This document shows, piece after piece, positions 5,776 through 64,000 of a stretch of DNA of 64,000 nucleotides. Where the stretch lies: positions 6,534,231-6,598,230 of the forward strand of contig NC_134033.1 of NCBI RefSeq assembly GCF_964204645.1. The letters are read 5' to 3'. The position numbers and the translations under genes were made by a program. This DNA is from Tubulanus polymorphus (taxonomy: Eukaryota; Animalia; Nemertea). How positions within the stretch are numbered: the first letter of the stretch is position 1; each line of letters starts with the position of its first letter. Below the pieces are notes generated by a model, which worked only from the letters and a program-made list of their open reading frames with translations, ran no database searches and had not been told where the DNA came from.

Positions 5776-5787
5776 AAAATTAAAATT

Positions 5788-6119: not shown

Positions 6120-6139
6120 TTATTTAACAAAAAAATTAA

Positions 6140-9005: not shown

Positions 9006-9021
9006 TTATATAATAAAAAAT

Positions 9022-10215: not shown

Positions 10216-10258
10216 AGGAATAATATCAATATTATCAACTTATCAACAAAAATTACTA

Positions 10259-10694: not shown

Positions 10695-10717
10695 TTATTT
10701 AGCAAAAAAATATGCAT

Positions 10718-10939
10718 TTATATAGGAGGAATATATTTTTGTTTTTCCAAATAATCAATAGTTAAATTAGATAAAGTAACTGCTAGCGTCAATTTTAAGA
10801 TATCATTTATATCAAATCTATCAACATTAACACTTCCCATTTTAAATACTTTTTTTAATACCATTGAATAACCAACAGTTCCAACTGATAGTAAGGCACC
10901 ATAATATAATCCAGTTATTATCCACTTATTATCACTCAT
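10718..10939 (-). CDS. 73-aa hydrophobic Polinton protein
   Basis: Differs from 49616-49837 at one residue (Y vs N at position 13). Confidence 0.85.
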   Translation of the reverse strand: MSDNKWIITGLYYGALLSVGTVGYSMVLKKVFKMGSVNVDRFDINDILKLTLAVTLSNLTIDYLEKQKYIPPI

Positions 10940-11595
10940 TTATTTATCAAAAAAATTACTATCTTCAAAATATTTAGTTATCTTATTTATGATTATTTCA
11001 ACATTTATAGTATTATTAGTTTTATGATTATCATATATTTTGGATAATATGTTTTTAATGTCATCGATAATTCCATCTTCACCAGAATTACAAGTTATAT
11101 CTTTAGTTGCTTCGAATGTTTTTGTAGGATCGCTTAAATTGCAATAAATATAAAAGTGTGTAAAAGGTATTAAGTTTGGTGTAGCATCAATATTTGTAAA
11201 AGATTTACCTGGAAGAATTCCTAACACAACAACCTTATCTTTATTTTGTTAGAACTCTCACTTTTCAAAAATCTGATATTAAACCCGGAATTATTACCTG
11301 ACTTGTGCCAGGCTTTTCTATTAATTTCTTGTGCCAATGTATCTAAATTATGTAACCCTGGTTTTAAATATATATAGGCCCATTCATTTTTATTTTTATT
11401 ACACATTAAAAAGGCTCTATGTTCAACAGTTTTATTCGATATATTGTAAAATGAGTTACATAAACTAATATTTACTAATTTTAAATCTACACAATTCTTA
11501 AATTCTCTATCTAATTGTACTAATAAATTATGTGATTTATAATTAGTAAGTCTTCTTGAATCAACAAATATTCTGTATTCTTTTAATTCTACCAT
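10940..11595 (-). pseudogene. Minor capsid (penton-like) remnant fused by deletion to the C-terminus of the next small gene
   Basis: MVELKEYRIFVDSR... and FTHFYIYCNL match 48485-49242; INVEIIINKITKYF..SNFFDK matches the end of 49319-49615. Confidence 0.85.
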
Positions 11596-11611
11596 TTATT
11601 TTACATATTTT

Positions 11612-11964
11612 TTATTCGAAATCTATTTCATGGTGCCCTTTGTCATTCTTACCTTTGTATATGAAATAGAAATCTCCAGAACATAATTCTTCTAAATCTT
11701 CACTTGATAATCTATGAAATCTATCTGGTAAATATTTTCTGAATTCATATGTATTTCCTTTTAATCCTTCATATTCTAAGTGGATACTAATTTATCTCCA
11801 TATTTATTAGTAACTGTATCAATATTTGTAATTAGATATTTCTGATGAATTGTTAATTCTGTTAACTTTTTGAATTTATAATCTACAGATTTTACATTTG
11901 TAGTATCTTTTATTCTATCTAGAAATGATTTGTTGTTCTCACTGTGTACTTGTTTACTCTCCAT
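11612..11964 (-). pseudogene. ~117-aa Polinton-associated protein, 1-nt frameshift, absent from the full-length element
   Basis: MESKQVHSE...KFKKLTELTIHQKYLITNID...EYEGLKG...YLPDRFHRL...FYFIYKG; homolog split between 37967-38061 and 62864-63070. Confidence 0.7.
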
Positions 11965-12023
11965 TTTAATAACATATTTTTTATTAAAATTGATTCTAGA
12001 AGTTATTAGATTAATATTTCAAG

Positions 12024-41660: not shown

Positions 41661-41959
41661 TGACAAGAAACGTGCGGTAGATTTCGGAAAGACGACTTAG
41701 AAAAACATGTCGGCTCTTTGAATGGGGCTCAATTTTCGATGTTTACGGCCCGACAGTGCTTTTGTAACGATGATTCGTGAAAAAACACGCGGAGTAATTG
41801 TAGATCTTAGTGAGCTGAACGATATCATACGGATTGTATCGACAACAGCGGCAAGGTAACAAAGCCTTTGTACTTTTAGTGAAACTATAGTGTGACATAA
41901 AATAGTAATAAATATAGCTGCATAGCAGCGATAACGGGTTTCTGCCTAATAAAGAAGTT

Positions 41960-42048
41960 AGTAATTGGAAGATGGCGTTTTCAGGCCAGAGGTCGTGCGG
42001 TCGAGACACCACTCATCACCACAAGTAATTTTTTTTCCTAATAAATGG
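41960..42048 (+). repeat. Left TIR (89 bp), includes the pPolB start codon
   Basis: Exact reverse complement of 58708-58796. Confidence 0.97.
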
Positions 42049-45000
42049 GGGAGAATGAACACCAGCCAGAAAACAATAATGTTAATAAAAATCAATATTA
42101 TTGCCAATATTGTAAAAAATACATCGATAAATCCCAAAAATCACGACATGAAAAAACGTCAAATCATATAAAAAATGTAATAGATTTTGAAACTCCAGAA
42201 AATTCCAATGAAAGAAAAGAACGATTAGAAAATATGAATGTGGATGAAATAAAATGTGAAGTTTGTAATGAATTTATAGTAAAAAGGAATTATAATAGAC
42301 ATCTCGAATCACAAAAACACCGCCAAAATTTGAGTAATAATGTTTTAGGAAAAGATTATTTTGATGATAAACCTCAACAAGTAAAAGAATCAACTTCAAA
42401 AACTAAATCCATTTCAAATAAACCTTACATGGAAAATGTTAGAAATTATATTGATTCACTAGAAATAAAAGATACAATTGAAATCTTAGAAACATTACAT
42501 AGTAAAATTGGTCCTGCAGCTATTATATTTAGATTCTTTAAAGGTACAACAATAGAAGATTATAGTAAATTTAATGAAATAATAGAAACAATACTAGATT
42601 TGATAACAGATGTTGAATATCCAAAAATTAGTATCTCTGGGAAAGTAAGTTTTATAAAGTCAGAAGAAAAAATGGATTATAATATTCAAACACACTCTGA
42701 AGAAATAATTTCAAAAACACAAATAAAAGAGAAGTTAGAAAAAATATTAAATGAATTTAAACGTCATATTGAAGAAAGATATTTTGAGGGTTCTGGCTTA
42801 ACATTGAATGAAATTATATATTTAGATTTAAATGTTTATAATACAAAAAGAAATAAAACATCAAAAAGTAATAAAATGTTTTAAAATGATTCAAACTTTA
42901 TAACAGAAAAAGATATGAAAGCATCAAGTTATATCAAATTACCATTTATAACAAAAGCAGTAATAAATATTCAAAATGAAGATAATAAATGTTTTCTATG
43001 GTCAATTATTAGTTGCTTACATCCAACAGAAGAACATGCTTATAGAATAACAGATTACCGGAAATATGAAACATTATATAAAATTGATCAATATCCAGTA
43101 ACTATAAAAATGATTCCTAAAATAGAAAAAGTTAATAATTTAAAAATAAATGTATTCGAATTAATGCAATTACCAAAGACAAAAGGTGAAAATATTAAAG
43201 ATTATACATTGGAAGCTTTATATTTAACAGAATATTATGATGATGAAAATGTTATAGATTTGTTATATTACAAAAAAGATGAAAATGAACATTATATGTG
43301 GTTAAAACAAATTGATTTATTCTTTAGAACAGAAAGTGATTTTAACAGCCATAAAATTTATCTATGTAGAAAATGTTTATCTAAATTTAGAACTGAGAAT
43401 ACATTATTAAAACATAAAGAATTATGTGATAATAAAGATTTTTGTAAATTAATAATGCCAACAGAAAAAGATTATAAATTGAAATTTACTAATCATAAAT
43501 TTAAAAATATTGTTCCATTTGTAATTTATGGGGATTTTGAATCGTTGAATAAAGAATTAACTGATCAAGATAGAAAAGAAATATATAACAAAAAGCAATT
43601 ATTAAAATCAATGGATAAAGGAAGTGAATTAAATGAAGACATAATACAAGACCCACCAATTATAAATACAATTAAAAAAGTTCATCAAAGAGCTGCTGCT
43701 TATGGAATTTACATAAAATCAAATTATCCCGAATTATATGAAAGTCAATATATTTCTTTTAGAGGTGAAAATGTAGTTAATAATTTTTGTGATAAAATTA
43801 TTGAATTAGAAAGTGATTTTGCAAAATTATTAAACAAAAATAAAAGAATAGTTATGACAAAAGAAGATGAAATTGATTTTAATTATGCAACTCATTGTTG
43901 TTACTGTGAAAAACGTTTTTATTCATTTGATAAAAAAGTTAGAGATCATAATCATTTAAATTCAAATTATCGTGGAGCTGCTCATGAAGATTGTAATTTA
44001 CAAGCCAAAAAAGTAAATTTTGTCCCCATTATATTTCACAATTTATCGGGGTATGATACCCATCTATTTATAAAACAGCTATGTTATAAAATAGAAGAAA
44101 TTAATAATGAAATAGAAATATTAAATTCTTCAAATAGATTAAAAGATAACAAAGTATCAATTTACAAATTTAAAATACTTGCTAAAACATCTGAAAATTA
44201 TATTTCATTCCAATTTGGGTGTTTGAGATTTTTAGATTCGTATAGATTTTTAAGTAGTTCATTAGAAAATTTATCAAAAAGTTTAGTTGATAATGATTTT
44301 CAAATATTAAAACAACATTATCAAAATAATAATGATTTTAAATTAATGAGATATAAAGGAGCAATTCCATATTCTTTCTATAAAAATCATGATGATTTTA
44401 ATGTAACAGAATTATAAAAAGATCAATTTTATGATAAATTAAAAGAGGAGTATGTGAAAGATGAAGTGTTTAATAGAACATTAAATATTTGGAACCATTT
44501 TAAGATGAAAAATCATGGTGAATTAGTTGATTTATATTTAAAATCAGATGTTATGATATTGGCTGACATATTTGAAAAATTTAGAGAAGTTAATTTGAAT
44601 CATTTTAATGTTGATCCTTGTTATTGCTACTCTAGTCCTGGTTTAACCTGGCAATGTGGTTTAAAATATACAAATGTAGAATTAGATTTATTAAAAGAAC
44701 CAGATATGGTTTTATTATTTGAAAAATCAATTAGAGGTGGAATTAGTGGTGTTATGGGAGATAGGTATTTTAAAGCAAATGATGAATATAAATTATTATA
44801 TATTGACGCCAATAATTTATATGGTTGGGCAATGATGCAACCTCAACCATATAAAAATTTTATATTAACAGAAGTTGAAAATGGCGATAAAACTGATTGG
44901 GAAAACGCAATTGCGAGTTTAAAAGATGAAGCGCCAATTGGTTATTTCTTTGTAGTTGATTTAGAATATCCTGAAAATATAAAGTTTAAAACAAGAAACT

Positions 45001-47118
45001 TACCTTATTGCCCAGAACATTTAACTGTAGATGATAGTTATTTAAGTGAATACCAGAAGAAAATAAAACCGAAAGATCATGTTTTTACTGAAAAATTAAT
45101 ACTTACTCAAAATAATAAATACAATTATATTGTTCATTATAGAATGTTAAAATTTTATCTAAAGCAAGGAATGAAATTAAAGAAAGTACATAGATATATT
45201 GAATTTAATCAATCGAAGTGGTTAGAAAAATATATAGATTTCAATACTCAACAGAGAACAATATCAAAAACAGATTTTGAGAAGGATTTTTTTAAATTGA
45301 TGAACAATAGTTTTTATGGTAAAACATGTGAAAATATTAGAAATAGAAATGATATTGAATTAGTGAATAATTATGAACGATTGAGACACCTACAATCAAG
45401 TCCTAGACATTTAGGAAATAAAAGATTTGAAGATTATTTAACAGCAGTAAAATTAAAAAGAACGTCAATGAAATTTAATAAACCAATATTTATAGGTTCA
45501 ACAGTTTTAGAAATATCAAAATTATTAATGTATGATTTTTATTACAATGTATTACAACCATTGTTTGGGGAAAAACATATAGAAATTCTATACTTCGATT
45601 CTGTAACAGCTGACACCCCAATATTATTAAAATAGAATAACCAAATATTAATTAGAAGAATTTCAGAAATAATTCCTAATCAAAATAAATCTTATATTTC
45701 ATATGGTGAAAAAGAACTAATACAAATAAATGGTTTAATAGATGTTTGGACAAGAAATGGATGGAAAAAATTAAAGAATATTATTAGACATAAAACAAAT
45801 AAGAAAATCTATAGAGTTAGAACTAAATTAGGATTTGTAGATGTTACTGAAGACCACAGTTTAATTAAACGAAATGGTGATGAAATAAAACCAACTGATA
45901 TAAAAATTGGAGATGAATTATTACATAAAAGATTTTTCCCAAGAATGAATCATATGTCATTTGATGAAATAATTGATAATATTTATAATATAGAACCCGA
46001 AACATTGGAAGAAAAAGAATATTTTATCAAAGGATTTTTCATGGGTGATGGTTCAGCAGGTGTGTATAAATATGTTTGGGGTAATAAATATTGTTGGTAT
46101 TTATGCAATCAAGACTTAAAATTATTAGAAAGAATTAAGAAATTCTGTGAAGAAGTTTATTCACATAAAACATTTAGAATCATGGATGTTATGAAATCAT
46201 CCGCGGTTTATAGAATACTTATAAATAATCCTAAAGATTTTGCTATAAAATATAATGATGAATTCTATATTCATGCAATAGTGAAAAGTAATACTTCAAC
46301 TAAAGAAAAAATAGTACCAGATTATATTTTAAATTCAGAATATAATCTTAGAAAATGGTTCTTCATTGGGTTCTACGCAGCCGATGGTACTAAAAAATTT
46401 ATAAAGGATAAAACGATAACCTTTGCACAGAAAGGAAAATGTGCAATAAGTGGGTTAAATGTGTTATGCAGTTCATTAGGATTTAATATGAATATAGAAT
46501 TAATTAAATCTAAACCAAATTGTTTTAATTTAAGGCATGTAGAAAAAGAATTAACAGAAGAAGTTAAAGATTTATTTGAAATATATAACCCAACTGACTA
46601 TGTTTATGATTTATCAACAGATGATGGAACATTCAATTCTGGGTTCCCATTAATCCAAAAAAATACTGACAGTTACATACTAAAAATCAAGACAAATGAT
46701 ATAACAAAAGACTTAAAAACATTGAAACATTATTTCGACTTTGGCAATTACCCCAAAGATCATGAATTGTTTAGTAATGATAATAAAAAGATTCCTGGGA
46801 AGTTTAAAGATGAATTAGGAGGTGATGAAATGATTGAATTTGTTGGGATAAGAAGTAAAATGTATAGTTATAGAACAAAAGATCATGAAGCTAAAAAGTT
46901 AAAGAATAACAAAACATGTGGTTGATAAACATATAGAATTTCAAGATTATATAAAGTGTTTATATAAATCAATTGTAATGAAACATAAAATGAATTGTTT
47001 AAGATCAGTAGATCACGAGATGTACATTAATGAAGTTGAAAAAACTAGTTTAAATCCATTTGATGATAAAAGGCATATTTTAGATGATGGTATAAAAACA
47101 TTACCTTATGGCCATTAA
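42045..47118 (+). pseudogene. polB: Protein-primed family B DNA polymerase (Zn fingers, vOTU-like, exonuclease with Endo VII-like insert, polymerase) with intein; 3 in-frame stops and 1 frameshift
   Basis: ORFs at 42045, 42915, 44454 and 45945 share one frame, split by single stops (42882, 44415, 45633); frameshift near 46903. Motifs: DNKCFLWS..HY, YGDFES, FHNLSGYD, RFLDS, YLKSDV, YIDANNLYG, KLMNNSFYGK, YFD|TDS, GKFKDE, SKMY. Confidence 0.95.
45600..46664 (+). mobile_element. Intein with LAGLIDADG homing endonuclease (355 codons) in pPolB motif C
   Basis: Splits YFD|TDS. Block A SVTADTPILL, block B VDVTEDHSL, LAGLIDADG helices FIKGFFMGDG and FFIGFYAADG, blocks F/G YVYDLST..GTF...LIQKN, then Thr at +1; one TAG at 45633. 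Confidence 0.95.
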
Positions 47119-48416
47119 AACATAAAATCAATATCATCAAACTCGAAATCACTATTGTCTTCTTCATTTTCATTTAATTGTTCAGGTTCTTCTTCCATTC
47201 CATTTTTCTCATTTAAATAAAGTTCTATCTTGTTCCACATTTCATCTCGCTCTCTTTGTTTCTTTTTGTTTGTTAATTCATCAAATGGAATTATAATATC
47301 TAGGTTTAAATAATTTACAATCTTATTTAAAAAGAATTCATAATTTATTGAATCTGTTATTCTATTTTCCAAATGATACATTAATATTTGTTTGAATATT
47401 TTTTTTATATTTTTCATATCTTCTTCTGTTAATTTAGGTTTTTCATAATAATCGTTAAATAATAAATATAAATACATTTTCTTTTCTTTTGTGTTAAATG
47501 TTGGTGGAATAATTGTTTTTATAATATCTTTTTTAGTTATTTCACCATTTTTATTTTCTATTATTTTCATTTTTTCAAGCCATTGCATATATTCTGGTGT
47601 ATGATCTTCTATAGAAAATATTTTAAAAATTTCATCAAGATAATTTAATTTTGGATCTATAAGAAAATTTCTAGTTTTTTCTTCATCCCATAAATTCTTT
47701 TGCCATCCACAATCAACACAAAATAACACAGTACCTTCTTGTCTTAAGGTCGCATAACTACATTGTGGACATTTTCGTTTATAATTTATTGGTAATAGAT
47801 CTTCATTAAGCTCTTGGTATTTTCTTACGTTTTCTTTATGTTTTATTGTTCTATTATGTAGATTTGAATTACTTGTTGTAATAATCAATTTACAATATTT
47901 ACAATAATATGTTTTTCTTGTTAATTCATTATATTGTTTTTCTAACTTTTCAACTGTTTCTTCATTATCTGGTAACGTTTTCTCATATTTTATTTTTTCT
48001 AATAAATTATTTTTTCTTTCATTGAATTCAGTTTCAAATTTATTAGAAATTTTATCTATATGTGCTTTACGAAATTGATGATTCTCCCAATCTTCTTTAT
48101 TATCAGGGATGTATTTCATTTGACAAGGCTCGCAGAAATGATTTTTTATTTTATCCTTATCATAAAATAAGGAAGGTCTTTTCCAAATAACTTCAGGTTC
48201 AACTTCAGCAGAATTACTATCAACATTAGCCATTGCGCCATTAATTCTACACTTCTCTGAATGTTTTTTAACATAATTTCTTGAGAATAATTGATTACAT
48301 TTTGGACAGTTTATTTTAGGGGGTTTATAATTTTCATTATGTTTTTTCATATGTCGAGCCTTATTACTTTTTCTTAGAAGTTCACCACAAATTTCACATG
48401 CTATCTTCTCTTCCAT
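47115..48416 (-). CDS. Zn-finger protein with C-terminal VLTF3 (poxvirus A2)-like late transcription factor domain
   Basis: Four N-terminal CxxC..H fingers; Zn ribbon CPQC-x13-CVDCG; C-terminal INYEFFLNKIVNYL...KKKQRERDEMWNKI resembles the VLTF3 family end. Recognised by eye only. Confidence 0.68.
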   Translation of the reverse strand: MEEKIACEICGELLRKSNKARHMKKHNENYKPPKINCPKCNQLFSRNYVKKHSEKCRINGAMANVDSNSAEVEPEVIWKRPSLFYDKDKIKNHFCEPCQMKYIPDNKEDWENHQFRKAHIDKISNKFETEFNERKNNLLEKIKYEKTLPDNEETVEKLEKQYNELTRKTYYCKYCKLIITTSNSNLHNRTIKHKENVRKYQELNEDLLPINYKRKCPQCSYATLRQEGTVLFCVDCGWQKNLWDEEKTRNFLIDPKLNYLDEIFKIFSIEDHTPEYMQWLEKMKIIENKNGEITKKDIIKTIIPPTFNTKEKKMYLYLLFNDYYEKPKLTEEDMKNIKKIFKQILMYHLENRITDSINYEFFLNKIVNYLNLDIIIPFDELTNKKKQRERDEMWNKIELYLNEKNGMEEEPEQLNENEEDNSDFEFDDIDFMF

Positions 48417-48484
48417 TTATTTAGGAAAAATTTTATTAAAATTAATTTTTAGTGATGAGTGTAATTTTTTTATGTTATAAATAA

Positions 48485-49242
48485 ATGGTGGAATTAAAAG
48501 AATATAGAATATATGTTGATTCTAGAAAACTTACAAATTATAAATCACATAATTTACTAGTACAATTAGATAGAGAATTTAAGAATTGTGTAGATTTAAA
48601 ATTAGTAAATATAAGTTTATGTAATTCTTTTTACAATGTATCGGATAAAACTCTTGAACATAGAGTCTTTTTAATTCATATTAGAAATATAAATGAATGG
48701 TTTCATCTATTTTTAAAACCAGGGTTATATAATTTAGAAACATTAGCCCAAGAAATTAATCGGAGAGCACGATTAAAACTTGGAAAAGATGATAAATTTT
48801 TAATTAAATTTAGTAAAAGTGATAGTTCTGATAAAATTAAAATAAAGTTAGATGATGAAAACAAACATGCATTTATGGTAAAAAAACCTATAGCTAAATT
48901 GCTAGGAATTGAACCAGATGTTGTTACAGGAAACGTAGACGGTAATTCAAATATAATACCTTTTACACACTTTTATATTTATTGCAATTTAATCGATCCT
49001 ACAAAAACATTTGAAGCTACTAAAGATAAAACTTGTAATTCTAGTATACTAAATATTTTACCAATAAAAATGTTAAACAATTTGGAACTCAAATAAATTA
49101 TAATTTAACAGAATGTGATTTTAAACCTTGCATTCCTAAATTTAATAATTTTAGATTAGAAATTAGAAATCATAATGGATACTTAATTGATTTAAATAAC
49201 TTTCCTGTGATATATGAATTAGTTATAAGATGTAAAGAGTAA
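48485..49242 (+). pseudogene. Minor capsid protein (penton-like), 1-nt frameshift near 49070
   Basis: IYVDSR start, FYIYCNLID, ILPI; shifted frame continues FRLEIRNHNGYLIDLNNFPVIYELVI to a stop at 49240-49242. Confidence 0.78.
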
Positions 49243-49258
49243 TTTTTTTATTATATAA

Positions 49259-49615
49259 ATAAATATAATTGTTGGACCGAGTATATGTTTTGGATTTGAT
49301 TTTAAACGTGAGAAAGAAATGAAATTTAACATGAATGATGTAATTACACATATAAAAAATGTTGTATTTTCTAATGAAACAACATTTGAGTATGAAACAA
49401 CAATAGATAAAGAAACTTTAAATGTAGAAAAGATTACTAATTTAATTAGAGAATCTTTAAGATTTTATGAATTAGATGAAGATTTTATAATCGATGATAT
49501 TAAAAAAATAATAATTGAAATATATACAAATGAAACTAGTAATGAAATAAATGTTGAAATAATCATAAATAAGATAACTAAATATTTTGATGATAGTAAT
49601 TTTTTTGATAAATAA
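49259..49615 (+). CDS. Small Polinton protein; probable original start mutated (TAAATG to TAAATA), downstream ATG at 49319
   Basis: Open frame from ATA at 49259 behind a T-run/TAAAT motif; C-terminus conserved in copy C. Confidence 0.6.
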   Translation: MNIIVGPSICFGFDFKREKEMKFNMNDVITHIKNVVFSNETTFEYETTIDKETLNVEKITNLIRESLRFYELDEDFIIDDIKKIIIEIYTNETSNEINVEIIINKITKYFDDSNFFDK

Positions 49616-49837
49616 ATGAGCGATAATAAGTGGATAATAACTGGATTATATAATGGCGCATTACTATCAGTTGGAACTGTTGGTTATTCAATGGTATTAA
49701 AAAAAGTATTCAAAATGGGAAGTGTTAATGTTGACAGATTTGATATCAATGATATTTTGAAATTAACATTAGCAGTTACTTTATCTAATTTAACTATTGA
49801 TTATTTGGAAAAACAAAAATATATTCCTCCCATATAA
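49616..49837 (+). CDS. 73-aa hydrophobic protein
   Basis: TAAATG start; two hydrophobic segments; conserved in copy C. Confidence 0.8.
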   Translation: MSDNKWIITGLYNGALLSVGTVGYSMVLKKVFKMGSVNVDRFDINDILKLTLAVTLSNLTIDYLEKQKYIPPI

Positions 49838-49861
49838 ATGCATAATTTTTTTGTTAAATAA

Positions 49862-50284
49862 ATGGCTTCTGCAATTATAACTATTATAGGATCAGCAATT
49901 GTTAACGCTTTAGCATTTACTGGTGGTGGTTATTTATTTAAACATATTGATAAAAATAGTTCATTAGGAGAACAAAGAAGACATAACTTAGCGTTAGAGA
50001 AATACAATAAAGCTGCAGAAGAATATAGAGAAAAGAGACAAAACTATATGGATTACATCAATAAAGAATTATATGATCAGAAGATTTCACATAGAGATTT
50101 TCAATCAGTTGATGATGCAATGAGTTTATATAACGCAGTAACCAATAAAGAAAAATTACATCTATACAAACCTAAATTATCAGATTATTATACCCCAAGT
50201 AAAGAACAACAGAAATATGAAATAATATGGATTTTAGGTGGAACTGTTATTGTTATATTTGTTGCTTATAAGTTTACTAATTAG
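49862..50284 (+). CDS. 140-aa protein with hydrophobic N- and C-termini
   Basis: TAAATG start; conserved in copy C. Confidence 0.82.
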   Translation: MASAIITIIGSAIVNALAFTGGGYLFKHIDKNSSLGEQRRHNLALEKYNKAAEEYREKRQNYMDYINKELYDQKISHRDFQSVDDAMSLYNAVTNKEKLHLYKPKLSDYYTPSKEQQKYEIIWILGGTVIVIFVAYKFTN

Positions 50285-50303
50285 TAATTTTTAATCTAAA
50301 TAA

Positions 50304-50738
50304 ATGGAAGATAAAGTTGATAGTATTGATATTATTCCTCATGATATAAATAAAACTAAATTAAAAACATATTTAGAAAAACAAATATTAGAATTTGAAA
50401 GTGACTTAAAGATAAAAAAGAAAAAATATTTAAAAAGTAAAATTATATATTATCTTATTATTAGTGGTTCGGTTACAATTAGTTCTGTAATAACATTTCT
50501 AGCAATATTCAGTCCATTAACACCTTTAGCTATATCAATTGGTGTATTAGGATTAAGTTCAAGTGTTTTAACCGGTATAAGTTCAAAATTAAATATAAAA
50601 AGTAATAAAGAAAAAATCAAAACTAATATAAAAGAAATTAATAAATTAAAGAACACACTAGATTATATAATAAGTTTAAATGGTCATATAACAGTTGAAG
50701 AACAAGATAAATTATTAAAAGAATTAATAAATTATTAA
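50304..50738 (+). CDS. 144-aa protein with two predicted TM helices flanked by coiled coils
   Basis: TAAATG start; hydrophobic stretch IIYYLIISG...LTGISS. Confidence 0.78.
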   Translation: MEDKVDSIDIIPHDINKTKLKTYLEKQILEFESDLKIKKKKYLKSKIIYYLIISGSVTISSVITFLAIFSPLTPLAISIGVLGLSSSVLTGISSKLNIKSNKEKIKTNIKEINKLKNTLDYIISLNGHITVEEQDKLLKELINY

Positions 50739-50754
50739 TTTTTTAATTATATAA

Positions 50755-52170
50755 ATGGTAGATAGTTTTCCAAAAGCTTTCCAATATAATAAATCAATTA
50801 AATATAATATTCCAGCAATAGATTTTAATAAAGATATTACATATAGAAATGAAGTTTTAGATTCATTAACTAATTTAGAAATTTATGTTACTGAAACTAA
50901 TAATTTTAATGCAAAGATGGAAAATATATTTCATGTATATTTAATTAATTTTAAAAAATTGAAAGATGAAAAACAATGGTTATTAAAATCTAATATGAAG
51001 TATTGGCAGAACCAATTAAATTTTGCTGTTTATTGTGCAACAACAGGATGTGGAATTAGTTGGAATGATCATTTGAATAATTCTAAATATAAACTAATTC
51101 AAAGTTTATTTAGATTTCATACATACTTTCAAATCAGAATAATATTAAATGAATTAGAGTGCGCTTTACCAGGATCTAGGTATTTTAAAGAATTAGATAA
51201 TAATATTAATTTATCAAAGTTTTATAAAATTTGTAATGAATTTAATATAGATATAAATAATTCTGATTTTAGAATAAAAATTGGAACAATAAGATCACTT
51301 CCTTGCCCTAGAAAGATTGCAGAATATTGTGCACTTCCCATACCATCTAATAGTTTTTATAATATCTATAATAAAAAATTAGGTTATGGTAAAATAGAAA
51401 CAAAGGATTTAGAAACATTAAATTTCAATAAATTACCGAAATTTTATGATAATTTAAAACAAGAAAACAATAATGGTTGGGTTTATTTTATTTTAGAAAA
51501 TAGTGAAGGTTTTACAAAATCAGGTATAGAAAGAATAAATCAATCTATTAGAACTTATTTAATATGTATTCTAGGATCACAAGTTGAAACAAGATCCCCG
51601 ATAATTGGAAATTTGAATACATCATTCGATACACAAAAACAGTTTAAAGTTTTATTTGAAGATTCAATTCATAATGATAAAAATAGATCGATTCCAGAAA
51701 ACGTTATAAGATATCAAAATTATTTAGATAAATCTCATGTAAGACTAAATTATTGTATAGGCCCTAATCTATTAATTATTTCTAATGATTTAGTATTAAA
51801 GATGGGAAATATAATTGGTTATAATAATCTAATTAAAACTGCAACAATAAATAATTCATTTGGGTTAAATGATATAAATAAAAAGATTATTACTGCTCCA
51901 AAATTAATAGAAGGTGAAAAAAATAAAAAACACATTCAATCAACAGAAACTAAAACTAAGAATATTAAATTGGTTAATGATTCCAAAATAAAAGATTACA
52001 ATACATCAGAAAATGGTGCCGTACGGCACCCACACGGTGATAATAGAACTGATATTATTCAACATGATATAATTAAACAATATGATGATAATAAATCCCA
52101 TGAAAATACTAAATTAGCTATAACTTGTATAGGAATTGTAATCGGAGGAATATTATATTTTAAATTTTAA
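50755..52170 (+). CDS. 471-aa Polinton protein with C-terminal membrane anchor, function unknown
   Basis: Intact ORF, TAAATG start, C-terminal LAITCIGIVIGGILYF; conserved in copy C. Confidence 0.85.
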   Translation: MVDSFPKAFQYNKSIKYNIPAIDFNKDITYRNEVLDSLTNLEIYVTETNNFNAKMENIFHVYLINFKKLKDEKQWLLKSNMKYWQNQLNFAVYCATTGCGISWNDHLNNSKYKLIQSLFRFHTYFQIRIILNELECALPGSRYFKELDNNINLSKFYKICNEFNIDINNSDFRIKIGTIRSLPCPRKIAEYCALPIPSNSFYNIYNKKLGYGKIETKDLETLNFNKLPKFYDNLKQENNNGWVYFILENSEGFTKSGIERINQSIRTYLICILGSQVETRSPIIGNLNTSFDTQKQFKVLFEDSIHNDKNRSIPENVIRYQNYLDKSHVRLNYCIGPNLLIISNDLVLKMGNIIGYNNLIKTATINNSFGLNDINKKIITAPKLIEGEKNKKHIQSTETKTKNIKLVNDSKIKDYNTSENGAVRHPHGDNRTDIIQHDIIKQYDDNKSHENTKLAITCIGIVIGGILYFKF

Positions 52171-52186
52171 TTTTTTTATTATGTAA

Positions 52187-53647
52187 ATGGATGTAGAAGG
52201 TGGAGAAGATTATGAAATGGGAGAAATGGGAAATGATAATGAAGGATATATTGATGATGATTATAATGATGCAGAAACTAATATTGATAATGATGATGAA
52301 TCAGCATATAATTCTAATTTAGCAGATAGTGGTTCTAAAGGTCAATCAACAGATGAATTTGATAGAAGAACTAGATCGAGAATAAATCCTGAAAATGAAA
52401 ATCCAGATTTAGTAAAACAAAATTTAGAATATAATGAATATATTTATAATTTCAAACCTATATTTGAAAAATCTGGATATAATATCAATGCTAGAGGCGC
52501 CAGACTTTTAGTACAAGAATTAAAATCTTTAGATGGTGAATATTATTATCATTTGAAAGATGATTATTATATTGATATCTCTTATAAAAAACAAAACAAA
52601 ATATTAGCAGAATCAACTTTGCTTAAGTTAGACCTATCTAGAATTAAAAGAATAAGAAATAGTAATGAACCAGAAGATGTAACACAAGAAGAAATTATTA
52701 AAAATGAAAGAGTATTTAAACAAAGAATTAATGAATTATTTGAAACAATCGATAATAATTTAGAACCAGAAACAAGTTCTCAACAGAATATAACTTCCAA
52801 AACTAGTAAACTTAAATCAAATAAAGTTCCAATTGAAAAACTTTTACCGAATGGGTTACTTGATGCAACAGATCAAGAATTAGAAGATTTAGATATATTT
52901 TCTGATAAAGCAATTAGAGAAATTATTAGTATAAGACTTGCATCTGATAAAATTGCGCATGATAAAAGTATAAGAGATTTTAAGATTAGAACTTTAGAAA
53001 AAGAATTAACTGATAAAAATAAAGAAATAGAACAATTAAAATTAGATAGAGATAATAAAGTAATTGAAGAAATTGAATTTAAAAAAAGAAATGCATATTT
53101 AGAAAAAGAAATTGATGATTTAGAATATAACATAGAATTACAAAAAGAAGAAATTAAATCATTATTTAAATCATATGATTATAATATTGATAGATTAAAA
53201 GATGTTTTTAAAAGATATCTAATAAAACCAGATTCTAGAATATCATTAAAAGATAGAATAAAATTGTTATTTAAATTAGAAGGAATAACAATTCTTTCAA
53301 TTCTAACAGGTGTAACTATGTTATTTACAACAATAGGTTTAGCTATATCAAATGCTTTGAAATCTACTCCTACTCCCAATAAACCAGATAAACCCCCGAA
53401 TGATAATAATTCTATACAAGATAAAGTTAAAGATGGTTTAAAGAAATTAGCAAAATATTTATGGGAACTATCAAAGAAATCTGCTGCAGCACTACCAGGA
53501 GTTATTGCATCAATTGTTGGTTTTGTTTTAAAATCTGCAGGAAACATTATTAACTTTGCTGCTGAACATATTATTTTATTTTTAATTACAGTTGTAAGTG
53601 CTATTATTTTTGGGTTAGTAAATATGATATCAAAAAATATCAAGTAA
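52187..53647 (+). CDS. 486-aa acidic/coiled-coil protein with C-terminal hydrophobic helices
   Basis: Intact ORF, TAAATG start; C-terminal third conserved in copy C. Confidence 0.85.
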   Translation: MDVEGGEDYEMGEMGNDNEGYIDDDYNDAETNIDNDDESAYNSNLADSGSKGQSTDEFDRRTRSRINPENENPDLVKQNLEYNEYIYNFKPIFEKSGYNINARGARLLVQELKSLDGEYYYHLKDDYYIDISYKKQNKILAESTLLKLDLSRIKRIRNSNEPEDVTQEEIIKNERVFKQRINELFETIDNNLEPETSSQQNITSKTSKLKSNKVPIEKLLPNGLLDATDQELEDLDIFSDKAIREIISIRLASDKIAHDKSIRDFKIRTLEKELTDKNKEIEQLKLDRDNKVIEEIEFKKRNAYLEKEIDDLEYNIELQKEEIKSLFKSYDYNIDRLKDVFKRYLIKPDSRISLKDRIKLLFKLEGITILSILTGVTMLFTTIGLAISNALKSTPTPNKPDKPPNDNNSIQDKVKDGLKKLAKYLWELSKKSAAALPGVIASIVGFVLKSAGNIINFAAEHIILFLITVVSAIIFGLVNMISKNIK

Positions 53648-53688
53648 ACCATGATTAAAAATAAATAATTAATTTTTTTGTTAAATAA

Positions 53689-54936
53689 ATGAGTGGGAGT
53701 TATATAAGTCCTTCTAAGATTTCTAGAATATCTAATGCTATTAAAGCAGAAAGATTACATCATATAATTACTCATAACCCTTCAAATATTAATCCCGATG
53801 AAACTTTATACGTTAGAATTCCGAGATTAACACAAAATACTTTTTATGTTCCAAATAGTATTTATTTATCAGCTGATATAAAAGTAATCGGTAATAATAA
53901 TAATTATGTTGTTGATAATGTTGGAAGATATTTGATTAAAAAGTTAACAATAAAGATTGGTCCAGAAACAGTTTTCTCATTAGATGATTATAATTTATTT
54001 ATGCATTATAAAGATTTATGGTTAACTAAAGAAAATAGAAATAATATGATATTTCAAGGAATCCAATCAGAAAACCAAAATAAATTAAGATCAGAAGCTA
54101 ATAGCGCAATATTAACAAATGATGTAGATAAATTGATAAAAAGTATATATGGAAGCAAATATAAAATTCCATTAGACTTTGAATTGATAAATAATAATGC
54201 ACCTTTATATAAATACGCAATTCAAGAAGATATTATATTTGAGATAACATTTGCTCCTGTAAATGAAATTGTAATATCTAGCGTTAATAAAGATATGAGT
54301 TATAAATTATCGAATATATGTTTAGAATATGATACAGTAACTGATGAAAATATTGCTAGAACAATTCAAACTCAATACAATCAAGGATTTTCATTATTAT
54401 ATGATTATATTGATAAATTTAAAACTGTAACTATTAATGCAAATGATGAAATAATTAATGAGAATATTAACTTCCCTAGAAGATCTATTAAAGGTATATT
54501 AATATTTCTTACCATTGGAACGTATACTAATGGCGCAATAAATGTTGATAATTATTATAATCCTGAAATAACAAAAGTAGAAATAACTATCGAAGGTATA
54601 GCGAATAAAATATTTTGTCAAGGAATGAGAATGATAGATCAATGGGTAGAAATTAAAAAACATTTTATGAATGAAAAAGTAAAATCATTTGAAAATTGTA
54701 ACATTAATCAAATTGATTATTATACCGGTAATAAATATGCATTATGGTTAGATTTTAGAACAACTGAAGATAATTCATTACATGGTTCTGGGAAAAAATT
54801 ACAAAATACAAAAGATGGGATCCAATTATTTATGACAAAGAAAAAGGGAATCAAAAATTTTAAAATGCATATTTATATTATATCTGACGCACAATTAAAT
54901 ATTGTAAATTCACAATTAGATATTATTCAATATTAG
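53689..54936 (+). CDS. Major capsid protein (putative double jelly-roll)
   Basis: 415-aa intact ORF beside integrase and ATPase; beta-strand pattern (LYVRIPRL, YKIPLDF, IIFEITFAP, LSNICLEYD, LWLDFR); size and position fit a Polinton MCP. Confidence 0.8.
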   Translation: MSGSYISPSKISRISNAIKAERLHHIITHNPSNINPDETLYVRIPRLTQNTFYVPNSIYLSADIKVIGNNNNYVVDNVGRYLIKKLTIKIGPETVFSLDDYNLFMHYKDLWLTKENRNNMIFQGIQSENQNKLRSEANSAILTNDVDKLIKSIYGSKYKIPLDFELINNNAPLYKYAIQEDIIFEITFAPVNEIVISSVNKDMSYKLSNICLEYDTVTDENIARTIQTQYNQGFSLLYDYIDKFKTVTINANDEIINENINFPRRSIKGILIFLTIGTYTNGAINVDNYYNPEITKVEITIEGIANKIFCQGMRMIDQWVEIKKHFMNEKVKSFENCNINQIDYYTGNKYALWLDFRTTEDNSLHGSGKKLQNTKDGIQLFMTKKKGIKNFKMHIYIISDAQLNIVNSQLDIIQY

Positions 54937-54966
54937 AAATATAAAGTTAAAATTAAGGATATATAA

Positions 54967-56094
54967 ATGAGTGGTAAAAAAACTCCTAATACTAAAGAAC
55001 AATATTTAAGAAATTTATATTACAACCCTGAGAGTTCGGTTGCTTATTCTTCTACTAAAAATATATGGCGTAAAGTAAAACAAGATAAATTAGATAAGAT
55101 AATCTCACAAAATTTAGTTAAATATAAAGATATAAATGAATTTATGTTAGAACAACCAACATATACAACACATAAAAAAATTGTTAGAAAATATAAAACT
55201 CGTAAAACTATGGTAAGTTATGTAGATCAACAGTGGCAAGGAGATTTAATTGATATGAAAAATGTTAAGAAAGATAATGATGATTATTGGTGGTTATTGA
55301 ATATAATTGATATTTTTAGTCGTTATGTATGGAGTTTCCCACTTTATAGAAAAGATGCTGCACAAACATCACATGTTTTAAGAAAATTTCTTTCGGATGA
55401 TAAACTAAAACCAGAAAAAATACAATTTGATGATGGAAAAGAGTTTGATAATTCACTTGTTCATGAACTCTTAGATAATCATAATATTAAATATTTTTCA
55501 ACAAAATCAGATAAAAAAGCAGCAGTTGTTGAACGATTTAATAGAACATTAAGAACAAGAATGTGGAAATATTTTACAGCAAATAATACTTTTAAATGGA
55601 TTGTTGTTTTACCAAAATTGATAGAAGGATATAATAATTCTTATCATTCTTCTATTGGAATGAAACCTATTGATGCTAGAAAACCTGAAAATGCTGAAAT
55701 TGTTTGGAATAATTTATATGGAGCATTTCTTGTAGATGATTTTGGTGAACCTAAATTTAAAGTTGGTCAAAATGTTAGAATTTCTAAGTATAAAAAGATA
55801 TTTGATAAAGGATACGATCGAAATTTTACTAGAGAAATATATAAAATAAAAAAGGTAATAACAACAAAACCATATGTCTATAAATTAGAAGATTTAGATG
55901 GTGAAGAAGTTGATGGCTACTTTTATGAAGAAGAATTAAGTTTAACTACTGAAAATCTAAAACAAGAATATAAAATTGAAAAAGTATTAAAAACAAAAAC
56001 TGTTAAAAGAAAAAAATATTCTTTAGTAAAATGGGTTGGATGGCCAGATAAATTCAATGAATGGATATTATCAAGTAAAATTAAAAATATATAA
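54967..56094 (+). CDS. Retroviral-like (rve) DDE integrase with C-terminal chromodomain
   Basis: WQGDLIDM, IDIFSRY, IQFDDGKEF, VERFNRT, YNNSYHSSIGMKP; chromodomain YKIEKVL...LVKWVGWPDKFNEWI. Confidence 0.95.
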   Translation: MSGKKTPNTKEQYLRNLYYNPESSVAYSSTKNIWRKVKQDKLDKIISQNLVKYKDINEFMLEQPTYTTHKKIVRKYKTRKTMVSYVDQQWQGDLIDMKNVKKDNDDYWWLLNIIDIFSRYVWSFPLYRKDAAQTSHVLRKFLSDDKLKPEKIQFDDGKEFDNSLVHELLDNHNIKYFSTKSDKKAAVVERFNRTLRTRMWKYFTANNTFKWIVVLPKLIEGYNNSYHSSIGMKPIDARKPENAEIVWNNLYGAFLVDDFGEPKFKVGQNVRISKYKKIFDKGYDRNFTREIYKIKKVITTKPYVYKLEDLDGEEVDGYFYEEELSLTTENLKQEYKIEKVLKTKTVKRKKYSLVKWVGWPDKFNEWILSSKIKNI

Positions 56095-56703
56095 ATGAAT
56101 AAGGAATTATTCATATTTGAGCCTCATAATATGTTAATTTCTGGTGTAACAAATTGTGGAAAAACTTATTTTATATTACATTTATTAGAAACTGTTTATG
56201 AAAACTATTTTGATAATATAGTATTATTTTGTCCAACATATGAATTTAATCAAACTTATGATAAAAATATTACTAGGAATAATAAATTTATTATATTAGA
56301 TCCTAAAACAGTAAAAGAAAATTTAGATAATTGTATAAAAATAGCAATTGATATTTATAAAGGATCAAATACATTATTTATCATAGATGATTGTGCTAAT
56401 CTACATGATTCAAAAGTTAGAGAAAGTGAGTTATGTTATTTAGCTTTTTCTGGTAGACATTTTGGGATAACAACTTGGGTTTTAAATCAAAAATATAATT
56501 CAATTGTTAAAGATTTTAGAGAAAACATTAGATTTCTAGTTTTATTCTACAATAAAGATAGAAAATCGATGAAAAATGCACTTGAGGAAAATGATATTAT
56601 TCCACATGATTTACATAATGAATATATGGATAAGTTGAAAAATATTAAAAGATCAAAATTACTATTTAGATTACAACACCCATTTAAATATGAATTTATT
56701 TAA
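56095..56703 (+). CDS. A32/FtsK-type DNA packaging ATPase
   Basis: Walker A GVTNCGKT, Walker B FIIDD, GRH motif, Q sensor (VLNQ), FREN. Confidence 0.93.
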   Translation: MNKELFIFEPHNMLISGVTNCGKTYFILHLLETVYENYFDNIVLFCPTYEFNQTYDKNITRNNKFIILDPKTVKENLDNCIKIAIDIYKGSNTLFIIDDCANLHDSKVRESELCYLAFSGRHFGITTWVLNQKYNSIVKDFRENIRFLVLFYNKDRKSMKNALEENDIIPHDLHNEYMDKLKNIKRSKLLFRLQHPFKYEFI

Positions 56704-57062
56704 ATTCAATTAGTTTGTTAATCTAGTTGAATTCTAGTTATTGGTAGTTGTAACAAAAATCAAATAGATTTAACAATATTTTAACTAGCTTGTTAATCTA
56801 TTTTAATTCTAGTTGAATTCTAGTTGTTAGTAGTTGAAACAAAAATCAACTAGATTTAACAAGAAATAAACAAAAACAACAATATTTCAACTAGCTTGTT
56901 AATCTAGTTACATTCTAGTTACATTCTAATTGAATTCTAGTTGTTAGTAGTTGAAACAAAAATCAACTAGATTTAACAAGAAATAAACAAAAACAACAAT
57001 ATTTCAACTAACTTGTTAATCTAGTTGAATTCTAGTTACATTATAGTTAAATTCTAGTTGCA
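56704..57062. repeat. Non-coding repeat block inside the Polinton (CTAGTT/AACTAG motifs, 117-bp duplication)
   Basis: Duplicated unit at 56818 and 56935 plus a degenerate upstream copy. Confidence 0.8.
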
Positions 57063-57093
57063 ACATCACACAATTAATTTTTTTGTTATATAA

Positions 57094-57680
57094 ATGGTAG
57101 GTGAAAAGAAAATAAAATCTAAAAATGGTGATGTTCCAATTGAAAAAACTTTAGATGATTTAGGAATAACAGAAACAAAATTAATTCCAGATGATGGTGC
57201 TTTAAATAATGTTACAACAAATAATAATTATGAATATTATCTTTATTGCAAACATCAATTAGAAATATTAATAGCATCTGGAAAATGTAAAAATTTTGTT
57301 AGTAAAAATTTAACTTATAATGAATTAGACACAATGAAATCAGATGAAATTATTAGATTATTTAAGATTTATGAAGCCGCGAGAACAGCTAGAATTAATG
57401 ACGCGATATCAGAAAATGTAGTAAAAGGTTATAGTAAATTATGTAATTATATACTACCAATTGAAGATGAAAATAGATTATATTCCGATTTAAAAAATGA
57501 TTATTTATGACTGAATTAAATAAATGGATTGGATATTTATCATTTCAATTAGGTGGATTTATGACATTATTATCAACTGGAGTTATAACATTTTCAAATA
57601 TTGAAAGTAAAAATATTTCTATAATAAATGAGCGAGGTGAAAGAAGTGAAGAAAAAACCGAGAACTCAGAAACAAATTGA
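57094..57680 (+). pseudogene. Polinton protein with hydrophobic C-terminal region, frameshift near 57505
   Basis: ORF 57094-57510 appears to continue in a shifted frame as TELNKWIGYLSFQLGGFMTLLSTGVITFSNI to TGA at 57678-57680. Confidence 0.62.
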
Positions 57681-57981
57681 ATGGTCTCGGCAATTAGGAA
57701 TTAAATCACAAGAATATAAAAAAGCTGTAAAAGAAAAAATAAGTAATAAAAATGTTAATAAAAATGGTGAAAATATTGTTATTTCTACTCCTTCTGATAG
57801 TAGAATATTTGATAAATATTTATATTTTACAGTTGGATTTGTAATTGTATTCATTTTGATTGGGTGTAATTGGTATAAGAAATCAAATAAAATTCATGAT
57901 ATTAGTAATTCTGAACCAACTGCTATCAAAAATGAAAGTACTTCTGAAATTCCAAAATTGACAATAAAAAAAATGGATTAA
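57628..57981 (+). CDS. 117-aa basic protein with a single TM helix
   Basis: TAAATG start; Lys-rich N-terminus; YLYFTVGFVIVFILIGC segment. Confidence 0.75.
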   Translation: MSEVKEVKKKPRTQKQIEWSRQLGIKSQEYKKAVKEKISNKNVNKNGENIVISTPSDSRIFDKYLYFTVGFVIVFILIGCNWYKKSNKIHDISNSEPTAIKNESTSEIPKLTIKKMD

Positions 57982-58018
57982 TATTTTAGAAAAAAAGCAA
58001 AAAAAATAATTGAATATC

Positions 58019-58711
58019 TCACTGCGGAGCAATTAAATTGTCTAGATAAGTCATTTCGGATTCCTCAACGTATCGTTCATTATTTGGATTATTGTTCCAT
58101 TGATCAATAAATTTCTTTGCCTTTGTTAACTGTTCTGAATATAACTGTAAATTTAGTTTATTAGATTTAATTATATTTTCTTTCTTTTCTAAAGGCCTTA
58201 AATTTCTCCAGTTCCAGATTTTCTTCTTATCATATTCATCATTCATATCAAATTTAGAAATCGGCAACACGTGATCAATATGAAAGTATTCACCATAATT
58301 ATCTATATTCATTTTATCATCGAATTGATATATTATCCATGATTTTAAGAATTCATCTGAACAACCCAATAGATTAGATAGTGTTTCTGAATGTGTTTCT
58401 TTGTTGAATAATTGTGTTAATCTAGACCGTAAACATTGTTTCAATCTAAAATTAAGATCTGTTTGATATCTTTCTCTCATATATTTTGTCATATAATCAT
58501 TATAAGATTCTCTATTATCTTCTCGGTATTGTTTGGTATATAGTTTAAAACAAGTTTTACAGCAATTTTGAAAACCATCTTTGCTAATCTTACGCTTACT
58601 AAATTCTGTAAATGATTTATCTAATTCACATTTAGAACACTTCTTGTAGTATATGTTTATAACACCAATGTTATTTGTAATATTAACAATTTGTGGTTGT
58701 TCTGATTCCAT
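58019..58711 (-). CDS. HNH endonuclease with N-terminal CxxC...CxxC Zn ribbon
   Basis: CSKC...CKTC; HIDHVLP...NLRPL...N..KSNK; start codon lies inside the right TIR. Confidence 0.85.
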   Translation of the reverse strand: MESEQPQIVNITNNIGVINIYYKKCSKCELDKSFTEFSKRKISKDGFQNCCKTCFKLYTKQYREDNRESYNDYMTKYMRERYQTDLNFRLKQCLRSRLTQLFNKETHSETLSNLLGCSDEFLKSWIIYQFDDKMNIDNYGEYFHIDHVLPISKFDMNDEYDKKKIWNWRNLRPLEKKENIIKSNKLNLQLYSEQLTKAKKFIDQWNNNPNNERYVEESEMTYLDNLIAPQ

Positions 58712-58796
58712 TTATTAGGAAAAAAAATTACTTGTGGTGATGAGTGGTGTCTCGACCGCACGACCTCTGGCCTGAAAACGCCATCTTCCAATTACT
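58708..58796 (-). repeat. Right TIR (89 bp), includes the HNH gene start codon
   Basis: Exact reverse complement of 41960-42048. Confidence 0.97.
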
Positions 58797-58877
58797 GAAG
58801 TTTCCAGTACCTAGGCGCAATTTTGAGGCGGTCCCTCGAGGTCCCCATTGTTGCGATAATTTGCGCTCATTTTTAAA

Positions 58878-62863: not shown

Positions 62864-63075
62864 TTAACATTACATAAGAAATATTTAATTACAAATATCG
62901 AAACATTTACTAATAGATATGGTAACAAATTAGTTATTCACCTAGAATATGAAGGATTAAAAGGTAATAAATATACATTCAGAACATATTTACCAGATAG
63001 ATTTCATAGATAATCTACTGAAGATCTAGAAGAAGTGTGTTCTGGTGATTTCTATTTCATATACCAATAAGGGTA
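62864..63075 (+). pseudogene. Polinton copy B, right part: 3' half of the small ORF
   Basis: LTLHKKYLITNIETFTNRYGNKLVIHLEYEGLKG...YLPDRFHR*STEDLEEVCSGDFYFIY continues 37967-38061 in frame. Confidence 0.8.
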
Positions 63076-63970: not shown

Positions 63971-64000
63971 GAATTTAAAAATATTATATAATTCAAATTA

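What the first reader, a model, noticed from the sequence alone, without database searches (positions are those of the whole stretch)
41960..58796. Endogenous Polinton-like virus apparently wired for a poxvirus/NCLDV helper: candidate animal virophage
Seen: a complete integrated element with capsid, ATPase, integrase and pPolB genes but no RNA polymerase; TAAATG starts on 14 of 15 genes; a VLTF3-like gene; a pol-c intein; an HNH nuclease; no introns; very AT-rich composition. Known: poxvirus late promoters use a T-run plus TAAAT(G) and need A2/VLTF3, and virophages such as Mavirus share late promoters with their giant-virus helper and integrate with an rve integrase. Inference: the element is silent in the nucleus and is expressed in the cytoplasmic factory of a pox-like virus of this invertebrate, as a hyperparasite or inherited antiviral defence. 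I cannot check whether this family has already been described.
Basis: partly seen in the sequence, partly recalled or inferred. Interest (0 to 1): 0.92.

Follow-up and report, generated by a model that had tools for sequence, protein, structure and literature searches.

The report
Polinton clade with poxvirus late promoters
A virus-like element integrated in what is likely an animal genome, and its close relatives, start nearly all genes at a poxvirus-style late promoter and carry a poxvirus-like late transcription factor, so they likely multiply as parasites of a pox-type virus that has not been found.

Summary
The element is real: 16,837 bp, perfect 89-bp terminal repeats, 6-bp target duplication, pPolB, integrase, A32 ATPase, capsid, no RNA polymerase. 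It is full-length but damaged (seven breaks, four in pPolB). TAAATG opens 14 of 15 genes versus 33 of 640 other ATGs, behind a fixed-distance T-run matching the vaccinia late promoter. The motif marks one capsid-protein clade (46 of 53 starts, also in GC-richer members) and is absent from its sister group (0 of 15). Coding regions do not avoid AATAAA, like poxvirus genes and unlike the sister group (modest statistics). VLTF3 is confirmed and scores closer to poxvirus A2 than to giant-virus VLTF3, but trees do not place it inside Poxviridae. The intein is 41% identical to giant-virus PolB inteins at the same site. No helper virus or RNA data were found, so helper dependence is inferred (about 0.6); the main rival is nuclear transcription driven by the element's own VLTF3. 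VLTF3 in Polintons and entomopoxvirus-associated PLVs are published; I found no paper on this promoter. This scan noted the same idea before on another genome (e1-8580207).

The parts
41954..41959 (.). left target-site duplication (6 bp)
41960..42048 (.). left terminal inverted repeat; holds the promoter and ATG of pPolB
42045..47118 (+). protein-primed DNA polymerase B gene, broken (stops at 42882, 44415, 45633; frame break near 46900-46925)
   Evidence: identity from visible motifs
45600..46664 (+). pol-c intein with LAGLIDADG domain, one internal stop; 41% identical to a giant-virus PolB intein
47115..48416 (-). zinc-finger + VLTF3 (poxvirus A2-like) protein, 433 aa; VLTF3 domain 47187-47804
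48417..48484 (.). 68-bp divergent promoter pair (VLTF3 / penton-like), TAAATG at both ends
48485..49242 (+). likely minor capsid (penton) gene, frame break near 49050-49095; fold not tested
   Evidence: identity inferred from size and position
49243..49615 (+). small gene whose start appears lost in this copy; the one start without TAAATG
49616..49837 (+). conserved 73-aa hydrophobic protein
49862..50284 (+). conserved 140-aa protein with hydrophobic ends
50304..50738 (+). two-TM protein, weak SLATT match (E 0.004, below cut-off)
50755..52170 (+). conserved 471-aa protein, no family
52187..53647 (+). conserved 486-aa coiled-coil/membrane protein, no family
53689..54936 (+). major capsid protein (double jelly roll), 415 aa, open
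54967..56094 (+). rve integrase with chromodomain, open
56095..56703 (+). A32-like packaging ATPase, open
56711..57060 (.). non-coding 117-bp tandem repeat (about 2.5 copies)
57094..57632 (+). conserved small gene, frame break near 57500
57628..57981 (+). 117-aa basic protein with one TM segment
58019..58711 (-). zinc-finger / HNH-like protein (label weak); promoter inside the right repeat
58708..58796 (.). right terminal inverted repeat
58797..58802 (.). right target-site duplication
5773..12020 (-). second, more decayed copy of the family (76-89% DNA identity in most blocks), with TAAATG starts kept on at least five genes
62888..63067 (+). third fragment of the family (small gene also in the second copy and in L003)

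Best explanation
This is a damaged copy of an integrating Polinton-type virus whose clade starts nearly all genes at a poxvirus late-type promoter and is likely transcribed by the RNA polymerase of a co-infecting pox-like virus, in that virus's cytoplasmic factory. Shown: the layout, the promoter (TAA, a T-run at -16 to -10, then TAAATG overlapping the start codon), its confinement to one clade, the VLTF3 gene and the intein. Inferred: in a cell infected by the helper, element DNA is read by the helper's post-replicative machinery; initiation within the AAA would give 5' poly(A)-leader mRNAs, which would explain the T at -3 where sister elements mostly have A; pPolB then copies the genome from its ends, the ATPase packages it and the integrase deposits copies in the host genome, where they would stay mostly silent, as for mavirus. 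The element's own VLTF3 would boost its promoters or divert the helper's. How a nuclear copy first reaches the helper's enzymes is not explained.
For: 14 of 15 starts vs 33 of 640 ATGs; T at -14 in 14 of 15 and at -13 in 12 of 15, where vaccinia late promoters have a conserved T ten bases before TAAAT (PMC11980589 passage). All 10 window matches of the long motif lie at gene starts with the same spacing; 0.04 expected. Relatives: 46 of 53 starts in 15 loci with MCP identity of 51% or more (39 of 45 without three near-duplicates), including loci of 36-44% GC; 0 of 15 in five more distant loci; the carriers form one MCP clade, SH-aLRT 98. Non-pox giant-virus loci have TAAATG at 13 of 141 and 19 of 209 starts, poxvirus A2 loci at 17 of 47. 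AATAAA in coding regions observed/expected: element 70/64.9, poxvirus control 56/49.8, giant-virus control 100/99.2, sister group 9/17.6 (p 0.017 vs element). VLTF3: 39.1 bits to a poxvirus A2 profile vs 12.0 to a non-pox profile, collinear, zinc-ribbon spacing 13 as in 23 of 24 pox and 0 of 73 non-pox sequences; orthologues P0161 and P0168 show the gene is kept in relatives. Intein 41% identical over its length to a giant-virus PolB intein at the same motif. Two relatives carry a deoxynucleoside kinase. Precedents: shared late promoters and silent provirophage in mavirus (PMC6428243 passages); PLVs in entomopoxvirus occlusion bodies (PMC11296320).
Against: No helper sequence seen; no host genome was held. 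VLTF3 trees do not nest the Polinton sequences in Poxviridae: they form their own deep branch between pox-type and giant-virus VLTF3; sisterhood with pox-type A2 is not rejected but not shown (p-AU 0.57). The pox set was picked with a motif shared with the query; with that motif masked the scores fall to 13.0 vs 4.4 bits, and asfarvirus, iridovirus and egovirus VLTF3 were not in the trees. The best intein matches are non-pox giant viruses. The AATAAA contrast rests on 9 sites in six contigs and is not significant against the GC-closer carriers (25/28.0, p 0.10). The family is multi-copy (three pieces in this window; near-identical contigs at about 5-13 times flank depth in two DNA runs), which a strict helper need must explain by repeated germline co-infection.
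Confidence: 0.58

Rival explanations
1. Autonomous nuclear virus: the element's VLTF3 recruits host RNA polymerase II to a private, pox-like initiator; because the VLTF3 gene has the same promoter, this forms a positive-feedback switch between latency and replication, with no helper.
For: VLTF3 is kept by RNA-polymerase-less mriyaviruses thought to replicate in nuclei (PMC11253617 passages). High copy number fits germline transposition without a helper. Unchecked notes of this scan report other Polintons with their own TBP or TFIIB and matching boxes.
Against: 70 AATAAA sites in 14.5 kb of coding sequence with no depletion, whereas the sister group is depleted. The start codon lies inside the initiator, with T at -3, leaving no 5' UTR. 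In vaccinia A2 is one of three late factors working with the viral polymerase (PMC11980589 table); no A1 or G8 homologue was seen among the element's ORFs. L018 has a VLTF3-like gene and no TAAATG starts.
Confidence: 0.25
2. Helper-dependent, but the helper is a non-pox cytoplasmic giant virus whose late promoter happens to be TAAATG.
For: The closest inteins lie in DNA-primed PolB genes of giant-virus contigs, 37-41% identity. The VLTF3 branch is outside sampled poxviruses.
Against: Only about 9% of starts in 240 non-pox loci carry TAAATG; described mimivirus and CroV late promoters differ (PMC5294985 passages). VLTF3 scores and zinc-ribbon spacing favour the pox type. One intein transfer may be old and was seen in one copy only.
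Confidence: 0.12
3. The motif is a by-product of a compact AT-rich genome: stop-start coupling (TAA ATG) or a polyadenylation signal of the upstream gene.
For: Two junctions are direct TAA-ATG (49615/49616, 56094/56095); AATAAA overlaps 9 of the 14 motifs.
Against: The motif stands at all four starts with no upstream co-oriented gene (both repeats and the divergent pair); AATAAA is missing from 5 of the 10 tandem ones; the T-run has fixed spacing; the motif persists in 36-44% GC relatives and is absent in 30% GC sister loci.
Confidence: 0.04

Closest known systems
Maverick/Polinton elements of animals (Polintoviricetes; 'adintoviruses', PMC8502044; coral polintoviruses, PMC11131425)
   Same: 15-20 kb, terminal inverted repeats, target duplication, pPolB, rve integrase, A32 ATPase, DJR capsid; VLTF3 reported in some; endonuclease/intein insertions in pPolB noted (PMC11161782 passage).
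   Different: No cysteine protease found; genome-wide poxvirus late-type promoter; pox-leaning VLTF3; no AATAAA avoidance. Group (1, 2 or the bivalve/cnidarian outliers) not placed against reference sequences.
Entomopoxvirus-associated PLVs (AHEV_PLV1/2, CBEV_PLV1, Ca_PLV1; PMC11296320)
   Same: Small preplasmiviricots of animals proposed to hyperparasitise poxviruses.
   Different: Those are about 12 kb, encode a protease and lack an rve integrase; the main text has no mention of promoters, TAAAT or VLTF. They were found with a helper; this one was not. No sequence comparison was possible.
Mavirus and endogenous mavirus-like virophages (PMC6428243)
   Same: rve integrase, pPolB, no RNA polymerase, one promoter class matching a cytoplasmic large virus's late promoter; the model for how this would work.
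   Different: Protist host, CroV helper, TCTA promoter, conserved protease; helper dependence is proven there and inferred here.
Vaccinia late/intermediate transcription (TAAATG promoter, A2L/VLTF3; PMC11980589, PMC5294985)
   Same: Initiator overlapping the ATG, T ten bases upstream, A2-like protein collinear over about 195 residues (about 22% identity).
   Different: No polymerase, A1 or G8 here; VLTF3 is fused behind about 200 residues of zinc fingers; almost every gene, including polymerase and integrase, uses the late-type start.

Membership tests
Maverick/Polinton | pPolB plus rve integrase | tested here: met
   rve E 1.7e-10; pPolB by visible motifs, broken in this copy
Maverick/Polinton | terminal inverted repeats and 6-bp target duplication | tested here: met
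Maverick/Polinton | DJR major capsid and A32 ATPase | tested here: met
Maverick/Polinton | minor capsid (penton) | tested here: inconclusive
   candidate at 48485, no significant family hit, not folded
Group 1 Maverick-Polinton / adintovirus | adenain-like cysteine protease | tested here: not met
   none among 18 ORFs; genes tile the element with gaps under 70 bp except the repeat
Group 2 Maverick-Polinton or Aquintovirus-related animal elements | MCP/ATPase phylogeny with reference members | not testable with these tools
Virophages (Lavidaviridae) | core morphogenesis set including protease | tested here: not met
   no protease; definition from PMC6428243 passage
Virophage lifestyle (works like) | promoters shared with a helper's late class | tested here: met
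   match to poxvirus late consensus; the actual helper is unknown
Virophage lifestyle (works like) | replication only with a helper; silent provirus | not testable with these tools
   no host genome, no RNA run on record
VLTF3 / poxvirus A2 family | Pfam PF04947 above cut-off; zinc ribbon plus helical domain | tested here: met
   27.7 bits; model pLDDT 76.5 built on a pox alignment, top Foldseek hits VLTF3
Poxviridae-derived A2 | branches inside the poxvirus A2 clade | tested here: inconclusive
   own deep branch; sister position not rejected, p-AU 0.57
pol-c intein | insertion before TDS of motif C, splicing ends, endonuclease | tested here: met
   one internal stop in this copy

The most novel reading that the evidence does not exclude
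A whole clade of endogenous animal Polintons are true virophages of poxviruses: they use the helper's late polymerase, carry an anciently captured A2-type factor to turn that polymerase to their own genes, and integrate in the germ line in many copies, so marking invertebrate hosts of pox-like viruses that nobody has yet sequenced and possibly protecting them.
Probability: 0.42. Interest if true: 0.9.

Novelty: new variant of a known kind. Interest (0 to 1): 0.74.

Why it matters
Whether animal Polintons are autonomous or need a helper virus is open. Here a promoter change maps to one clade and comes with loss of polyadenylation-signal avoidance, which points to a switch from nuclear to helper-driven cytoplasmic transcription and gives a cheap direct test (promoter reporters in poxvirus-infected cells; 5' poly(A) leaders). 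It also predicts unsampled pox-like viruses in the hosts of these elements.

Tried and rejected
No host genome held, so no search for helper genes. No RNA holder listed; one run guessed to be RNA barely covered the element: neither is evidence on expression. Word-index searches with the VLTF3 region found nothing. MCP and ATPase scans of viral contigs gave no loci; genome contigs gave none and then one fragmented contig, L023, listed but not analysed. The single-sequence VLTF3 model was poor (pLDDT 52); its top two Foldseek rows were poxvirus VLTF3 but not significant. No solved structure matched VLTF3 or MCP by sequence or VLTF3 by fold, so a TFIIB-like fold is untested; the wide structural search did not complete. 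TTTTTNT is depleted in both carriers and sister group, so it does not discriminate. A poxvirus RNA polymerase subunit, reported in note e1-8580207, was not seen in the window ORFs or in the 18 accessory ORFs of relatives scanned. An A-rich versus T-rich split of promoters (ATPase and 57628 genes A-rich, n=5 each; MCP and several small genes T-rich) may mirror intermediate and late classes but was not tested statistically. PMC5499653 had no VLTF passage.

Full report
Anatomy. The element spans 41960-58796, bounded by perfect 89-bp inverted repeats and a 6-bp target duplication, with 23.6% GC. Fifteen genes tile it with gaps under 70 bp apart from one 117-bp tandem repeat. Pfam names an rve integrase with chromodomain and an A32 ATPase; the 415-aa gene is a double-jelly-roll capsid protein (17 of 28 homologues hit Capsid_N). 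No RNA polymerase subunit or protease was found among 18 ORFs. The copy is damaged: three stops and a frame break in pPolB, frame breaks in two other genes and one lost start. The host is likely an animal: a rhodopsin-family GPCR fragment and LINE-type reverse transcriptases flank it; the taxon was not determined. A second decayed copy (5773-12020) and a third fragment (62888-63067) lie in the same window, and DNA runs of one organism hold near-identical contigs at about 5-13 times flank depth plus many diverged ones.

Promoter. TAAATG opens 14 of 15 genes against 33 of 640 other ATGs; upstream lie TAA at -19 to -17 and a T-run at -16 to -10. All 10 window matches of the long motif are at gene starts, with identical spacing although 4-8 bases were allowed. 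A review of vaccinia promoters describes late promoters as TAAAT followed by the G of the start codon with a conserved T ten bases upstream (PMC11980589, passages); here that position is T in 12 of 15. The motif stands at all four starts that have no upstream co-oriented gene, which rules out stop-start coupling or polyadenylation as its cause.

It is a clade trait. Of 22 metagenome loci found with the MCP alignment, 20 gave countable starts: 46 of 53 in 15 loci with MCP identity of 51% or more, 0 of 15 in five loci at 39-46%; L019 and L022 gave no qualifying row, and ORFs starting far inside a gene were dropped. A looser count gave 46 of 56 versus 0 of 25, with 13 of 141 and 19 of 209 in non-pox giant-virus loci and 17 of 47 in poxvirus loci. 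Carriers include loci of 36-44% GC and form one MCP clade (SH-aLRT 98, quick tree, midpoint root; L014 within it misses the motif at its two counted starts).

Signal of where it is transcribed. Against synonymous-codon shuffles, AATAAA is not depleted in the element (70 observed, 64.9 expected), its AT-rich relatives (140/141.4), ten poxvirus loci (56/49.8) or ten giant-virus loci (100/99.2), but is in the sister group (9/17.6, all six loci below expectation; p 0.017 versus the element). The GC-closer carriers are intermediate (25/28.0; p 0.10). This fits cytoplasmic transcription but rests on few sites.

VLTF3. The C-terminal domain passes the Pfam cut-off and aligns end to end with poxvirus A2 at about 22% identity. 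It scores 39.1 bits against a profile of 24 poxvirus A2 and 12.0 against 73 giant-virus VLTF3; with the selecting motif masked, 13.0 and 4.4; zinc-ribbon spacing matches 23 of 24 pox and 0 of 73 others. A model built on the pox alignment, hence biased, hits cowpox and entomopoxvirus VLTF3 first. Two orthologues with the same zinc-finger fusion were found. Trees put the three on their own deep branch, outside both groups; a sister position to pox-type A2 is neither rejected nor shown. Sister locus L018 has a shorter VLTF3-like gene that leans weakly to the giant-virus type and no TAAATG starts, so VLTF3 presence alone predicts nothing.

Intein. It sits between YFD and TDS, has a LAGLIDADG domain and is 41% identical over its length (E 2e-71) to an intein at the same motif of a DNA-primed PolB on a giant-virus contig, best of 111 candidates picked by a shared start motif. 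This shows past contact with large DNA viruses, but not with poxviruses in particular.

Mechanism. Best reading (0.58): a virophage-like cycle on a pox-like helper, modelled on mavirus (PMC6428243, passages). Shown are the promoter, its clade pattern, VLTF3 and the intein; inferred are the helper, cytoplasmic transcription, poly(A) leaders and nuclear silence. Rivals: autonomous nuclear transcription through the element's VLTF3 (0.25), a non-pox helper (0.12), a compositional by-product (0.04). Nothing here bears on host defence.

Literature. VLTF3 in a subgroup of polintoviruses is reported (PMC11131425, passages; figure legend in PMC8502044, passages). PLVs associated with entomopoxviruses are described (PMC11296320: abstract, term search, sections 5 and 6) without promoter analysis in the main text. 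Endonuclease insertions in Polinton pPolB are noted (PMC11161782, passages). Also read: bioRxiv 10.64898/2026.06.19.733378 (passages, sections 5 and 7), PMC5294985, PMC11253617, PMC5499653 and bioRxiv 10.1101/2024.03.23.586382 (passages). Searches showed no paper reporting TAAATG promoters in Polintons; most hits were seen as listings only, no supplements were read (those of PMC11296320 and the 2026 preprint could hold related elements), and subscription journals are missing. This scan recorded the same idea on another genome (e1-8580207); that note is unchecked and is not independent support.

Verdict. Real feature; new variant of a known kind; interest 0.74.

Noticed in passing
window 5773-12020 (-): Second decayed copy of the family, interrupted by other sequence; carries a small gene at 11612-12018 that the main copy lacks and that L003 (125-466) shares.
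   Followed up: partly
window 62888-64000: Third fragment of the family followed by an AT-rich stretch with a 92-bp tandem repeat (63629-63966).
   Followed up: partly
L003:10343-10981 (-); L008:2898-3377 (-): Deoxynucleoside kinase genes (Pfam dNK, about 110 bits) in two TAAATG-clade elements; the L003 gene starts at TAAATG.
   Followed up: partly
L009, L010, L011, L012, L013: Divergent gene pairs whose ATGs are only about 30 bases apart, with TAAATG on both strands (seen in the upstream strings).
   Followed up: partly
L001:2461-3684; L002:1748-3040; L005:2287-3117: Unknown zinc-finger proteins directly after the MCP, each with a TAAATG start; no family above cut-off.
   Followed up: partly
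window 58797-60875: A 2-kb unit with 79-bp inverted ends (92%) holding reverse-transcriptase pieces abuts the right end; its first six bases coincide with the target duplication.
   Followed up: no
proteins P0162-P0182, P0186: About 20 divergent A2-like proteins from unnamed assemblies, grouping with poxvirus A2; some may come from undescribed pox-like viruses and are candidates for the helper's kin.
   Followed up: partly
P0046: An MCP of the TAAATG clade is labelled as a Bartonella protein, likely a contaminant from an animal host.
   Followed up: no
L265: The one intein-motif locus outside the Polintons with TAAATG at 3 of 4 starts; its virus group was not checked.
   Followed up: no
window 687-3121 and 14551-18682: Long host tandem arrays with 34-bp and 31-bp units.
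   Followed up: no
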